NCBI GenBank assembly: GCA_012295275.1
Contig: CM022671.1
Location: 6,820,001-6,884,000, forward strand
DNA: 64,000 nucleotides
Reading direction: 5' to 3'
Origin: Chrysomallon squamiferum
Taxonomy: Eukaryota > Animalia > Mollusca
In this document: in pieces, positions 4,344 through 20,363 of the stretch
Layout of the letters: each line of letters begins with the position of its first letter
How positions within the stretch are numbered: position 1 is the first letter of the stretch
The notes under the pieces: model-generated
Database searches by the model: none
Told to the model about the DNA's origin: nothing
The model's input: only the letters and a program-made list of their open reading frames with translations
Made by a program: the position numbers and the translations under genes

Positions 4344-4413
4344 TACGTCATCGTTGATGTCACGTGAACAACGACGAGCCGCTATATAAAACAACTCATC
4401 AGCGAAATCAGTT
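4344..4413 (+). promoter_or_regulatory. Core promoter of secreted paralogue A: TACGTCA CRE-like site, TATATAAA, TCAGTT initiator
   Basis: TACGTCA 4344-4350, TATATAAA 4383-4390, Inr-like TCAGTT 4408-4413 at canonical spacing, then donor |gtaagt at 4476 ending a non-coding exon 1. Confidence 0.7.
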
Positions 4414-4468
4414 ATTACAGTCTGCAAAGCTCTGTGAGTCTCGTGTACGATTTGGATTTAAATAACAG

Positions 4469-4640
4469 AAACTATGTAAGTTAGATTACGTGTTAATTGT
4501 AAACTATGAAAGCTAGATTACGTGTTAATTGTAAACTATGTAAGTTAGAGTATTTGTTTAATTACATGTTAATTGTAAACTATGTAAGTTAGAGTATTTT
4601 TTTAATTACATGTTAATTTAAGCTATGTTAAGTTATAGTA
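4469..4640. repeat. 32-44 bp tandem repeat containing the exon-1 donor of paralogue A
   Basis: AAACTAT|GTAAGTTAG-type unit at 4469, 4501, 4533, 4577 and about 4620; two of the copies are degenerate. Confidence 0.85.
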
Positions 4641-5452
4641 TTGATATTGTTTTTGTTGATGTTGTATTTGTTGCTGTTATATATCATTTTCTTTAAGCTT
4701 TATATAGTCTACATTTAGCACGTAATAAAAATAGATTAAACTATTCCTCAGATATTTTTGGCAACATAAAACATTTAAAAATTTCAACTGAATTTCAATA
4801 ATTAATCAGATAATAGATTCAGTATAAAATTATAACTCAAAGTTTTGGTTCAAATTTTCTTTCTTTCTTTCTTTATCAAATTTTTAATTATTTATTTATT
4901 TATCTATTTATTTATGTCTTGAGGGGATTTTGTTTTCTTTCTTTGATTTAAATATTTCGTTTTCAGTTTTTAAAAATTTTTCTTTTGTTACTTTTATTAA
5001 AGATTCTCTATTTTAATTTATTTGGTTTTGAGATATCATTTGTTTTCAGTTTTATTTTAATCATTTATTTATTAATTTTTTCACTCATTCTTTGTTTTTT
5101 ATATTTTCCTCCTTTTATACTTTACTTTCTTTCTTTCTTTTTTTTTTTTTTTTTTTTTTTTGCTGAATATTTTGTTTTTTTACACTGATTATTAAATTAA
5201 TATAAAAGAGAATTTTTTTAGATTGCCTCTCTCTTTATCACATATTCTAATGCATCTATTTATATACATACATACATATATATAGATACATATATATATA
5301 TATATATATATATATATATATATATATATATATATATATATATATAATCTTTGTTGTTGTTACCATGTTTTTGTTGTTTGCAAATCACTTTCATGCCAGT
5401 AATTGTCGCTAATACAAAAACTATTCATTCCAGAAACGGATTAAACAAAGCC

Positions 5453-16392: not shown

Positions 16393-16676
16393 TACGTCAC
16401 ACCTGACTGGTTCTTTGACTTGTTGAATGATTTACAGGCACCAGTTGACGTACAGTTACGAACACTGACGGAAGACAACGAAGGGATACCTACGTACAGT
16501 GATTGTAATCGGCTAACAAACAAGGAAACGTATTGTTTTGATTGATGAATATTAATGAGACGGAAGTGGAAGGAAGGAACGCATTTGCATTGACCAGTTA
16601 GTTTTACACAAAGTATATAAAGATAAGTTTTGCTGAAAGTTTCAAAACACATTTGTATTCTACTTTCGAAGAACAG
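16393..16676 (+). promoter_or_regulatory. Promoter and non-coding exon 1 of paralogue C
   Basis: TACGTCA 16393, GAATATTAATGAGACGGAAGT about 16547-16567, GTATATAAAGATAAGTTTTG from 16613, donor cag|gtaaga at 16677. Confidence 0.68.
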
Positions 16677-16971
16677 GTAAGAATTATGCATGCTTGTATG
16701 TATGTACGTACGTGAGTATGTATATATGTATGTATGTATGTATGTATGTATGTAGCATGTATGTATATTATTGTGTTTGTACTTATATATGTATGCATGT
16801 ATGTTTGTGTGTGTATGTGTGTGTGTGTGTCTGTGTGTGATATTTAAATTTATTTCATCGATATTTACCTATTTACACATTAAAAATATTTCTAAAGAAG
16901 TAGATAGAAAGAAACTTTAACTATTCACGTTGATAATTTGTTCTATTTCAGAACGTGTAAAAGAAAACAAA

Positions 16972-18165
16972 ATGATTGGAGTTTCCATATTGTGTTTATG
17001 TGCATGTGTTGTTCTGACGTCAGCAACGTATTACAGACCTCGTACTTACAGCAATTATGACAACAGCTATATCATGCCTGGTTACTATAGCAACTACAAC
17101 ACATTCCCATCAGGTGAATATTTATGTATTTGTTTATTTATTTACAAATACTACCTTTTCTACTACTACTGATGTTATTATTATTATTATTATTATTATT
17201 ATTGTTATTGTTATTGTTATTATTATTGTTATTATTATTGTTGTTATTATTGTTGTTATTATTGATGATATTGTTTTTGTTACTATTACTGAAGGTACTG
17301 AATATTCTGTAAATACAATAAAAATTTAAAAAAATAAATAAATAAATAAAGTACAATAAAATTAAATTTAAAAAATGATAATAATAATATATTGTAATAT
17401 TATTACGTGTTTCTTTTCTGTTGTAGGTTATCCCACATTGCAAGGAGGAATCATACCATCAAACAAATATGGCCGACACTTGCGTAAGTTAATTTTTTTC
17501 TGCTGATTATTATTTGTCTTGTACAGTAAGTTGTATATTACAAATATTTAGCTATCTTCGCGTTTTGTGAGTGCTTTTTCATTTTATTTTTAATATTTGT
17601 GAGAGTTTAATTTTAATATATTCACACACCAGGCTACAGAAGGTCTACAACATACAGACAGCCAAGACGCTCAAAGTACAACAAACACGGCAGGAAAGGA
17701 TTCAACAGTTTCACTGGTGTAGGACAGTCTGGCTTCGGTGCACAAATTCAAACTGGTCAGTGGAACACGGGATTCGGAGGCCAATTTCAAAACCGGCCAT
17801 TGAATGGCCAGTTTCAAAATGGTCCATTGACCGGCCAGTTTCAAAATGGGCCATTGAATGGCCAGTTTCAAAATGGTCCATTGACCGGCCAGTTTCAAAA
17901 TGGGCCATTGAATGGCCAGTTTCAAAATGGTCCATTGACCGGCCAGTTTCAAAATGGGCCATTGACCGGCCAGTTTCAAAATGGTCCATTGACCGGCCAG
18001 TTTCAAAATGGTCCATTGAATGGCCGGGTTCAAAATGGAGCCTGGAATAATGGAATGGTCGGACGGATTCAGAATGGGGCGTGGAATAACGGATTCCCTG
18101 GGCAGTTTCAAAATGGTGCAGTTAATAACGGACGTTTTATGAATACAAGATTTAACAGATGGTAA
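16972..18165 (+). CDS. Secreted protein paralogue C (243 aa): same architecture as B with an expanded GQFQNGPL[NT] array
   Basis: Exons 16972-17113, 17427-17483, 17633-18165 (GT-AG, phase 1/1, 732 nt): MIGVSILCLCACVVLTSATYYRPRTYSNYDNSYIMPGYYSNYNTFPS-GYPTLQGGIIPSNKYGRHL-RYRRSTTYRQPRRSKYNKHGRKGF...(GQFQNGPL[NT])x8...FNRW*. Probable 3' UTR exon from 18600 with AATAAA near 18672. Confidence 0.88.
17779..18021 (+). repeat. Coding 27-bp tandem repeat, 9 units (GGCCAGTTTCAAAATGGKCCATTGAMY)
   Basis: Units counted directly: GQFQNRPLN followed by 8 x GQFQNGPL[T/N]. Confidence 0.95.
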
Positions 18166-20363
18166 ACAGGTAGTTGCTCAATTTTTCTATTTGATGATGT
18201 TGATACTGTTATTACTACAGTGTGTGTGTGTGTGTGTGTGTGTGTGTGTGTGTGTGTGTGTGTGTGTGTGTGTGTTGAATATGCGTCTGTGTATGTTTAA
18301 ATTCAGTTTTATGTAAAAGCTTTAGAACATGTTATTTTGCTCGTTTTTATTTTGAAATATATTTTAAACTGAGAATATCAGTACTAGCTTTAGTTGTAGC
18401 AGAGGCAGCAGACGTATAATTGTAGCTGTTATTATTAATATTCTGCTACCACTGCAACTATTATAACTAAAAATATTATCATTATTGTTGTTATTATTAG
18501 TAGTAGTATTAATAGTAGTAGTTGTAGTAGTAGTAGTAGTAGTAGTTGTTGTTGTTGTTGTAGTAGTAGTCGTATTAAATGTGTTATTTTGTTTTGCAGA
18601 TGATGAGAGACGGGTGTATGATGACGTCAGATGTGAAATCCTTACTTTGATCTATAATAATTGTATTTATCAATAAATCTATATTTTACACTCAAAGTGT
18701 CCTGTTTTCATTCCTATTGTAAACAAGTAAAATGACTTCATCTGGCTGCATTCTGTAACATGATAAAAAAAAAAAAAATGATCACATCTGTGATTAAATG
18801 AAAACAAAATTAAAAATGTAAACAAAAAAGGAACAATTATATATAAGAAAATATTCAATAGTAATTATTATTGTTGTCGTTGTTATTAACATTATTATTA
18901 TTACTGTTATTATTATTAATAGTAGTACTAGTAGTAGTAACTATAGTAGTAGTTATACTAGTAATATTAGCAATAGTATTGGTAAAACTAACAGTAGGAC
19001 TAATACTGGTAACAGGAGTAGTAGTTTTAATAGTTGTAGTAGTAATAGAAGAACTAGTAGTAGTAGTAGTAGAAGTAACAATAGTAGTAATAGTAGTACT
19101 AGTAGTAGCAGTAGTAGTAAACAATCAAAATTAAGTATAAAGTAAAATGAACATTACCTTAAATGCAGAGTGGTCTTGTAAAAATATTCGGTACTGAAAA
19201 TTTTGTATTTATATATTTTAATAGTAGTAGTAGTTTATATTTATATATTTTATGAAATTTTATAATGTTCTTACTCTCAGACAACCTTCATCAAAAATTT
19301 CTTTCCCTATTTATTTGAAACAAAGCTTGGATTTCACAATTTCTAAATTATATTCTTTCTTATAGAGACGCAGAACTTCATAAAAGTCATTTATTATAAA
19401 TTTATCAAAAAAAGTAAAAAAGAAAAAAGTTTCAAATCGTAAATATTCTGACGATGATGATGATATAAAAAAATCATTATATTGATAAAATATAGTGACT
19501 AAAATGTACGTTTCGCATAAAACATTTGGTGATTGTCGTAATTTAAATTTGTTACACACACACACACACACACACACACACACACACACATATAAAAGCC
19601 CGAGCATGCGCAGTCTGACTAGAGAGAGACGGATAAACAGGAAGACAGTTAAACAGAGACATATAGATAGATATAAAACATAAATAAGCCCATCATAAAA
19701 AGTAAAACAAACAGACAGGGGCGTGAAATAGAATTTGATTTTCTCTGTCATGTTTGATTTCCGCTGGTGTTTGTAAAATAAATATATAGTATATTTATTA
19801 CACGATGTTAACTAATTCATATGAAGTCTGCGACATTCACATGTTAATAAGCTGGGATCTGTCAAAAGAAGAAACGCACACGCAATATCACTAATTCACA
19901 GAGAGACTGTCGGGTATAATAAAAAAAAAAAAAAAAAAAAAATGAGAGAGACAAAAGCATATTGAAATCTGTCAAAACTATTTTTTTTAAATCATGAATG
20001 GCAAATGAGAGAACTGTGGCGGAAATTAACGAAGTTTTAGAAGAGTGATGTATGTTTTGTATGAAAGACAAAGAAAACAAAGGAAGGTGATGTTGATACT
20101 GTGTATGTCTGTCGCGACGTCAAAACACGGTCAGTCACTTCCAGTAATGAATGTATAAACATAGATCTTTCCTGCAAAACTGTACAGCAACCACTTAACT
20201 GATCTGTTTTATAGGTAAGCGTTTTAGTATTATTATTATTATCATCAATATATTATTATCATAATCATAATTATTATTATTATTATTATTATTATTATTA
20301 TTATTATTATTATTATAAGAAGAAGAAGAAGAAGAAAATAAACAAAAAGAAGCTAAATTGAAA

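What the first reader, a model, noticed from the sequence alone, without database searches (positions are those of the whole stretch)
4383..18680. Tandem cluster of three unrecognised secreted pro-proteins with furin sites and prion-like G/Q/N/F mature domains
Seen in sequence: three + strand genes share one plan. TATA, non-coding exon 1, a signal-peptide exon (LCACV..SATY), a short phase-1/phase-1 exon (42, 57, 57 nt), then an exon whose first codons complete an R-X-K/R-R site across the junction (A: R|RSKR; B and C: L|RYRR), and a C-terminal Trp. In B and C the pro-region is Tyr-rich and the part after the site is a basic patch plus a Cys-free, nearly acid-free Gly/Gln/Asn/Phe repeat. Established: R-X-K/R-R is the furin consensus; secreted low-complexity repeat proteins are typical of molluscan shell, periostracum and adhesive matrices; Q/N/G/aromatic sequences often self-assemble. 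Inference: a lineage-specific family whose assembly is triggered by cleavage (biomaterial, glue or functional amyloid), or Gly-rich antimicrobial precursors. The ORF track shows only fragments, and I recognise no family.
Basis: partly seen in the sequence, partly recalled or inferred. Interest (0 to 1): 0.85.

Follow-up and report, generated by a model that had tools for sequence, protein, structure and literature searches.

The report
Scaly-foot snail secreted repeat-protein cluster
Three neighbouring genes of the scaly-foot snail, with no detectable relatives in the databases searched, encode proteins predicted to be secreted and cut by furin, likely releasing a tyrosine-rich peptide and a positively charged repeat block that would help build a protein matrix outside the cell.

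Summary
The three genes are real and share one plan. Gene C matches a published Chrysomallon squamiferum gene model exactly (CsqKR_Scaf52_3.27: unit GQFQNGPLT, residues 116-197, 9.11 copies), which names the species and supports the exon model. That table gives no function. In all three, the first Arg of the R-X-K/R-R site is the codon split by intron 3. B versus C: signal and Tyr-rich pro-region are under purifying selection (dN/dS 0.06, 0.28) at dS 0.65-0.81, but the mature exon has dS 0.03-0.10 (p 2e-6), which points to recent gene conversion. No homologue was found. Corrections: A is not prion-like, and spliced C ends in Arg, not Trp. Best reading (0.5): precursors of an extracellular protein matrix that yield a cross-linkable Tyr-rich peptide and a self-assembling cationic block. 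Against it: C is absent from the published mantle, scale and oesophageal-gland high-expression lists, and its predicted beta-solenoid may be an AlphaFold2 artefact. Antimicrobial precursor 0.22. Splice junctions were not tested with reads.

The parts
4383..4433 (+). Gene A TATA box (4383) and predicted non-coding exon 1 (about 4411-4433; alternative donor at 4476)
   Evidence: sequence; boundaries inferred
5434..5576 (+). Gene A exon 2: ATG 5453, predicted signal peptide and start of pro-region, phase 1
5970..6011 (+). Gene A exon 3 (42 nt, phase 1/1)
6205..6368 (+). Gene A exon 4: completes RSKR; 53-residue Gly/Ser/Gln/Arg mature part, no repeat
6850..6960 (+). Gene A predicted last exon (Tyr-Trp-stop, AATAAA 6954); a duplicate acceptor at 6678 gives the same end
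   Evidence: inferred
11513..11520 (+). Gene B TATA box; promoter alignable with that of C (74% of aligned bases)
11775..11938 (+). Gene B exon 2: ATG 11794, predicted signal peptide, Tyr-rich pro-region
12294..12350 (+). Gene B exon 3 (57 nt, phase 1/1)
12713..13130 (+). Gene B exon 4: completes RYRR; basic patch, then 13- and 9-residue G/Q/N/F/W repeats (39- and 27-nt units)
13630..13692 (+). Gene B last exon (completes Trp, stop, AATAAA 13686)
16614..16676 (+). Gene C TATA box and predicted non-coding exon 1 (donor 16677)
   Evidence: inferred
16952..17113 (+). Gene C exon 2: ATG 16972, predicted signal peptide, Tyr-rich pro-region
17427..17483 (+). Gene C exon 3 (57 nt, phase 1/1)
17633..18161 (+). 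Gene C exon 4: completes RYRR; basic patch; nonapeptide array (27 nt x 9.6 at 17779-18038); matches CsqKR_Scaf52_3.27
18600..18678 (+). Gene C last exon (stop across the junction, AATAAA 18672)
12706..13148 (+). Probable gene-conversion tract in B, shared with C
17626..18179 (+). Probable gene-conversion tract in C, shared with B

Best explanation
These are three paralogous scaly-foot snail genes whose products are predicted to be secreted and cut by a furin-type convertase, and B and C likely serve as two-part building blocks of an organic matrix outside the cell. Shown: shared exon plan, a convertase consensus fixed on intron 3, purifying selection on the signal and Tyr-rich pro-region, an in-frame repeat array, and a mature exon almost identical between B and C. 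Inferred mechanism: the precursor stays soluble in the secretory pathway; cleavage at RYRR frees (i) a 52-53 residue peptide, about 20% Tyr, that tyrosinase or peroxidase would cross-link, and (ii) a 15-19 kDa acid-free block with cationic ends (net about +10 to +12) and a G/Q/N core with an aromatic residue about every ninth position, which would condense with polyanions or chitin and stack into beta-rich fibrils or a gel. Gene conversion would keep the two assembling blocks compatible while repeat number varies. The likely site is a non-calcified layer (periostracum, operculum, foot mucus, or a gland not in the published comparison), not the calcified shell. A is an older, shorter paralogue whose mature part may do something else.
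For: Exon plan and split-codon Arg in 3 of 3 genes. dN/dS 0.06 (signal, p 5e-4) and 0.28 (pro, p 1.5e-3): the pro-region is not a free spacer. Pro-regions are basic (pI 9.1-9.9) and the mature parts of B and C have pI 12. Aromatic spacing and prion-like score 20.7 and 26.3 (recalled parameters). Repeat units of 27 and 39 nt are multiples of three. C matches a published gene model in unit, position and copy number. Repetitive low-complexity domains occur in about 30% of mollusc shell proteins and evolve by slippage (PMC4897951, passages); the shell protein Pif is cut at RMKR into two functional products (PMC11291548, passages). In the 100-kb chunk numbering inferred for the published gene names, the only gene listed as novel among Scaf52 chunks 2-4 is Scaf52_3.13, which is mantle-enriched (fold change 8.1) and may be A or B (my estimate about 50%).
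Against: Scaf52_3.27 (C) appears in none of the scale, mantle or oesophageal-gland high-expression lists searched. Scaf52_3.13 is weakly expressed (mean 63 against 5.6, versus 20,640 for a nearby mantle gene) and its identity is unproven. No link to the published shell or scale proteomes could be made, since those tables hold no sequences. The beta-solenoid for C (pLDDT 81-89 over residues 51-120) is what AlphaFold2 over-predicts for perfect repeats (PMC11795689, abstract), and B is predicted disordered (pLDDT 47). A lacks the repeat and the Tyr richness (4 of 42). Secretion, cleavage, cross-linking and assembly are all untested.
Confidence: 0.5

Rival explanations
1. They are host-defence or symbiont-control precursors of the attacin/coleoptericin type: signal, propeptide, furin site, cationic Gly-rich mature peptide that binds bacterial surfaces.
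For: Same gross plan as attacins and coleoptericins (PMC8353981, passages). Mature B and C are strongly cationic and Cys-free. Even expression from haemocytes would explain the absence of C from tissue-enriched lists. The host carries bacterial symbionts (PMC7142155, sections 7-8).
Against: 0 Pfam families at E up to 1 for 5 of 6 exon queries; the sixth gave one weak unrelated match (E 0.17). The pro-region is basic and Tyr-rich, not acidic like defensin propeptides. The mature exon is homogenised and shows no excess of amino-acid change (4 of 50 differences in each non-repeat block), unlike the diversification usual for immune peptides (own knowledge). Long G/Q/N arrays of variable copy number suit materials better.
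Confidence: 0.22
2. They are precursors of short signalling or pheromone peptides: further cleavage at the Gly-Arg-Lys site of B and C would give a 15-residue amidated basic peptide, and the rest is carrier.
For: A GRK site follows the furin site in B and C, and GRR precedes it in A.
Against: Arg-Lys is a weak convertase site (own knowledge); there are no repeated peptide copies between basic sites; the array holds no basic residue for 73-110 residues; no homologue although neuropeptides are usually conserved across molluscs.
Confidence: 0.08
3. They are direct mineral-nucleating matrix proteins of the aragonite shell or the iron-sulfide layer.
For: Low-complexity proteins are enriched among mantle genes of this species (PMC7142155 section 7); a possible member is mantle-enriched; His and Tyr could bind metal.
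Against: Almost no acidic residues and no mature Cys; C is not mantle- or scale-enriched.
Confidence: 0.1
4. The near-identity of the mature exons is an assembly or polishing artefact, or one copy is not expressed.
For: No read-level test of junctions or of either copy was obtained; B was not found in the published repeat table.
Against: The exons still differ at 6 of 150 and 7 of 150 bases and in array structure; identity falls sharply just outside the exon (15 of 40 and 11 of 40); both frames are open and exons 2-3 show purifying selection.
Confidence: 0.07

Closest known systems
CsqKR_Scaf52_3.27 (Sun et al. 2020, PMC7142155, Supplementary Data 3)
   Same: Unit GQFQNGPLT, residues 116-197, 9.11 copies: identical to gene C as modelled here.
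   Different: One table row only; no signal peptide, furin site, paralogues or function is given in what I read (sections 7, 8 part 1, 23, passages, supplement searches).
Lineage-specific repetitive low-complexity (RLCD) proteins of mollusc mantle secretomes (PMC4897951)
   Same: Predicted secreted, Gly-rich, about 10-residue repeats, no homologues, copy-number change by slippage.
   Different: A conserved Tyr-rich pro-region and a furin site ahead of the repeat; acid-free N/Q/F composition; C not mantle-enriched.
Pif (Pif97/Pif80) of Pinctada (PMC11291548)
   Same: One precursor cut at an R-X-K/R-R site into two working parts.
   Different: Pif97 has VWA and chitin-binding domains and Pif80 binds calcium carbonate; nothing of that here.
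Insect Gly-rich antimicrobial precursors: attacin, coleoptericin (PMC8353981)
   Same: Signal, propeptide, furin site, Gly-rich Cys-free mature part.
   Different: No Pfam match; Tyr-rich conserved pro-region; long tandem G/Q/N array.
Mussel foot protein 3 (recalled, not fetched)
   Same: As recalled: short, cationic, rich in Gly, Tyr, Asn, Trp and Arg, with WNNG-like words.
   Different: No Pfam match; here Tyr is confined to the pro-region; different exon-encoded plan. A compositional lead only.
Right-handed beta-solenoids (pentapeptide-repeat proteins, curli CsgA)
   Same: The AlphaFold2 model of C aligns at Z 11.3 (2g0y, rmsd 2.8, 113 aligned) and Z 7.6 (CsgA fibril 8enq, rmsd 8.6, 92 aligned).
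   Different: No Foldseek match at E 0.001 or better, no sequence match in the PDB; the model itself is suspect.

Membership tests
Mollusc secreted RLCD proteins | N-terminal signal peptide | tested here: met
   Hydrophobic core 3.1-3.3 (Kyte-Doolittle, 9 residues) followed by SATY in 3 of 3; heuristic, SignalP not available
Mollusc secreted RLCD proteins | Repetitive low-complexity domain | tested here: met
   B and C: 27- and 39-nt in-frame arrays, C listed as low-complexity; A has none
Mollusc secreted RLCD proteins | Lineage restriction | tested here: met
   No homologue; 150 best of 347 hits are repeat-driven, none matches the non-repeat parts at E below 0.03. Exon-level queries only; A was searched only against Pfam
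Shell or scale matrix proteins | Present in shell or scale proteome, or enriched in mantle or scale epithelium | tested here: inconclusive
   C absent from high-expression lists; Scaf52_3.13 mantle-enriched but unassigned; proteome tables could not be mapped
Furin-processed precursors | R-X-K/R-R after a propeptide | tested here: met
   3 of 3, same position relative to intron 3; chance about 0.5% per independent gene
Furin-processed precursors | Cleavage observed | not testable with these tools
   Needs N-terminal proteomics
Attacin / coleoptericin / gloverin | Family profile match | tested here: not met
   No such Pfam family at E up to 1 for the three mature exons
Attacin / coleoptericin / gloverin | Antibacterial activity | not testable with these tools
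   Needs assay
Mussel foot protein 3 | Family profile match | tested here: not met
   No match; that Pfam holds this family is recalled
Prion-like (Q/N-rich) domains | Positive prion-composition score over 60 residues | tested here: inconclusive
   B 20.7, C 26.3, A -5.9 with parameters recalled from PLAAC, not the program itself
Beta-solenoid / functional amyloid | Stable cross-beta or solenoid fold | tested here: inconclusive
   Predicted for C, not for B; known method bias; fold matches generic

The most novel reading that the evidence does not exclude
A scaly-foot-snail-specific, furin-triggered two-component material: one precursor releases its own Tyr-rich cross-linker and a nonapeptide beta-solenoid block that polymerises into a functional amyloid in the thick organic shell layer, scales or foot secretion, with exon-limited gene conversion keeping the assembling blocks of two paralogues able to co-polymerise.
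Probability: 0.15. Interest if true: 0.8.

Novelty: new variant of a known kind. Interest (0 to 1): 0.45.

Why it matters
The scales of this snail are about 95% protein and 5% chitin (PMC9156901, passages), and the published proteome identified nothing from the acid-insoluble fractions (PMC11871041 section 5), so the bulk structural proteins of its organic armour may still be unnamed. B and C would be easy to miss: trypsin leaves a 73- or 110-residue core and mostly very short pieces. They are short, Cys-free, testable candidates for a cleavage-activated biomaterial or, if the rival holds, for a new host-defence peptide in a symbiotic vent animal. Secreted repeat proteins without homologues are, however, common in molluscs, which caps the surprise.

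Tried and rejected
No whole genome was held, so copy number elsewhere in the genome and synteny with Gigantopelta were not tested. Four runs were listed: one RNA run with 0.10 of the words, one run of unstated kind with 0.41, two with 0.03 or less; none was laid, so they are no evidence and the junctions remain untested. Homologue searches: B mature exon 0 of 17 candidates; C exon 2 no candidate; exact look-up 0 of 3; Atlas no usable hit for B or C; metagenome contigs 0 of 57 pattern matches confirmed; PDB sequences 0; Rfam 0 in the window; earlier findings 0. No fourth paralogue: the Met...C-A/G-C-V scan gave 3 hits in six frames (part of the tblastn output was cut from view). Papers: 'GQFQNG' 0 main texts; furin + low complexity + mollusc + secreted + repeat 3 papers, none on this by title and abstract start; Chrysomallon + amyloid 3 papers, 2 listed, unrelated by title. 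Neighbour-gene names were not found in either paper's supplements (one file not searched in each), and the 2025 gene names could not be mapped (that file is cut when stored). One large text supplement of PMC7142155 and one PDF of PMC11871041 could not be read, and figure-only pages are not searchable; they may bear on expression and proteome membership. The gill column of the source data repeats the scale column in the rows seen, so gill expression is untested. A complex prediction was not run, as the solenoid bias would make it uninformative. B and C as alleles: rejected (introns mostly unalignable, dS 0.65-0.81). Nesting inside the upstream transporter gene: rejected (its last exon appears to end at about 833).
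Full report
What is there. Three + strand genes lie between the end of an SLC6 transporter gene (Pfam SNF, E 8.8e-6) and ALG10 (E 9.7e-89), followed by RBM15/spenito. Splicing by coordinate at GT-AG sites gives open frames of 112 (A), 207 (B) and 242 (C) residues. 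Each has a TATATAAA box, a first intron ending 19-20 nt before the ATG, a hydrophobic N-terminus ending in SATY (3 occurrences in all six frames of the window, one per gene), a short phase-1/phase-1 exon, and an R-X-K/R-R site whose first Arg is the codon split by intron 3. A rough chance of such a site within six positions is 0.5% per independent gene. Exon 4 is 46-56% GC against 30% for the region and is open in one frame only.

C ends in Arg when spliced to the acceptor at 18599, because the junction makes a stop; Trp appears only in the unspliced read-through. A's terminal Tyr-Trp needs a predicted small exon, for which a local duplication offers two acceptors. A matches B and C significantly only in the signal region (z 6.7 and 7.2 in 2000 shuffles; pro and mature z -1.0 to 1.2), has no repeat and scores as not prion-like. 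Its paralogy rests on the signal sequence, intron positions and phases, and the split-codon furin site.

Organism. The neighbouring RBM15 is 89% identical to Gigantopelta aegis XP_041347694 and 65% to Haliotis, placing the window near Peltospiridae. A supplement search then found one row in Supplementary Data 3 of PMC7142155: CsqKR_Scaf52_3.27, residues 116-197, period 9, 9.11 copies, GQFQNGPLT. My model of C has the array starting at residue 116 and spanning 82 residues, 9.11 copies. So C is a published Chrysomallon squamiferum gene model, and the published model has the same number of residues ahead of the array, which supports exons 2-4. That annotation combined transcript, protein and ab initio evidence, so it is not proof of splicing. 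B was not found in that table by its motifs.

Selection. B versus C: signal 18 codons, dS 0.81, dN/dS 0.06 (Fisher p 5e-4); pro-region 52 codons, dS 0.65, dN/dS 0.28 (p 1.5e-3). The genes are therefore coding and an old duplication, and the Tyr-rich pro-region is constrained. In the two non-repeat blocks of exon 4 (50 codons each; the array was left out) dS is 0.03 and 0.10. Synonymous differences are 21 of about 47 sites in exons 2-3 against 4 of about 64 in exon 4 (p 2e-6). Identity is 144 of 150 and 143 of 150 at the exon ends, 7 of 7 and 16 of 18 in the adjoining intron bases, then 15 of 40 and 11 of 40 beyond. The simplest reading is a recent gene-conversion tract that covers the mature exon and stops just outside it, followed or accompanied by change in repeat number (inference).

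Relatives. None found. The profile-free search of 1.84 billion representatives with C exon 4 gave 347 hits at E 0.001 or better; the 150 listed match the array, none carries the family motifs, and none matches the non-repeat parts at E below 0.03. Gigantopelta RefSeq proteins are in that collection, so any orthologue there is diverged, unannotated or absent. All queries were single exons, and A was searched only against Pfam and the window.

Chemistry and fold. Pro-regions of B and C: 52-53 residues, 19-21% Tyr, pI 9.1-9.9. Mature parts: 136 and 172 residues, pI 12, net about +10 and +12, no Cys, at most one acidic residue, basic residues at both ends and none for 73-110 residues in the middle, an aromatic residue about every nine positions in the array. 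A prion-composition score with recalled PLAAC parameters gives 20.7 and 26.3. AlphaFold2 folds C's array into ten 6-residue strands at 9-residue period, pLDDT 81-89, resembling generic right-handed beta-solenoids (best Z 11.3, rmsd 2.8, 113 aligned; no Foldseek hit at E 0.001). AlphaFold2 is reported to give confident but unrealistic solenoids for perfect repeats (PMC11795689, abstract), and B, with fewer repeats and otherwise 92% identical, is predicted disordered (pLDDT 47). The fold is a lead, not evidence.

Expression. In the supplements of PMC7142155, Scaf52_3.27 occurs only in the repeat table, not in the scale, mantle or oesophageal-gland high-expression lists (thresholds fold change above 2, FDR below 0.05, paired test, n = 5). 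No foot list was found, and the gill column duplicates the scale column in the rows seen. One unannotated gene with the same chunk number, Scaf52_3.13, is listed as novel and mantle-enriched (fold change 8.1; mean 63 against 5.6) and is the only novel gene among chunks 2-4. If the chunk number marks a 100-kb window, as I recall for MAKER names, it could be A or B; this is unproven. The 2025 proteome tables (PMC11871041; outline, section 5 part 1, supplement searches and part 1 of file 3) hold no sequences and use other names; that study identified nothing in acid-insoluble fractions.

Mechanism. Best reading (0.5): secreted precursors cut once at the furin site, giving a Tyr-rich peptide for oxidative cross-linking and a cationic, acid-free G/Q/N/aromatic block that condenses or stacks into an organic matrix; Pif, cut at RMKR into two working parts, is the precedent in molluscs (PMC11291548, passages). 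Gene structure, selection and composition are shown; secretion, cleavage, cross-linking, assembly and tissue are inferred. Rivals: antimicrobial or symbiont-control precursor (0.22; same plan as attacins and coleoptericins, PMC8353981 passages, but no family match, a basic rather than acidic propeptide, and a homogenised mature exon); direct mineral nucleator (0.10); short peptide precursor (0.08); artefact or silent copy (0.07).

Verdict. A real, uncharacterised, apparently lineage-restricted family in the scaly-foot snail. It belongs by kind with the secreted repetitive low-complexity proteins common in molluscs (PMC4897951, passages); the constrained Tyr-rich propeptide, the intron-anchored furin site and the exon-limited conversion are the new features, and I found no description of them in searches (listings and the passages cited; most subscription papers are outside the library). 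New variant of a known kind; interest 0.45.

Noticed in passing
window 208-833 (+): 3' end of an SLC6 sodium:neurotransmitter symporter gene (Pfam SNF); last exon inferred at about 780-833.
   Followed up: partly
window 1210-2000: Long tandem minisatellite with a unit of about 27 bp (seen); gives long spurious ORFs on both strands.
   Followed up: no
window 6531-6691 and 6693-6862: Local tandem duplication (84% identity) in the last intron of A that duplicates the acceptor and the Tyr-Trp-stop exon start.
   Followed up: partly
window 20359-20515 and 24082-24218 (+): Two copies of a 140-160 bp element (78% identity), the second inside an ALG10 intron; no Rfam match; likely a short dispersed repeat.
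   Followed up: partly
window 22702-25758 (-) and 26272-28551 (+): ALG10 and single-ORF RBM15/spenito in head-to-head arrangement.
   Followed up: partly
window about 41000-46000 (+) and 56000-62000 (+): Exons resembling MAPKAP kinase 2 and isoleucyl-tRNA synthetase, named by eye from ORF translations (recalled, not tested).
   Followed up: no
window 36382-36788, 43234-43799, 48375-49370: Further degenerate tandem arrays that produce repeat-like ORFs.
   Followed up: no
PMC7142155 source data, sheet S1: The gill column repeats the scale column in the rows shown, so it cannot be used as a gill list.
   Followed up: partly
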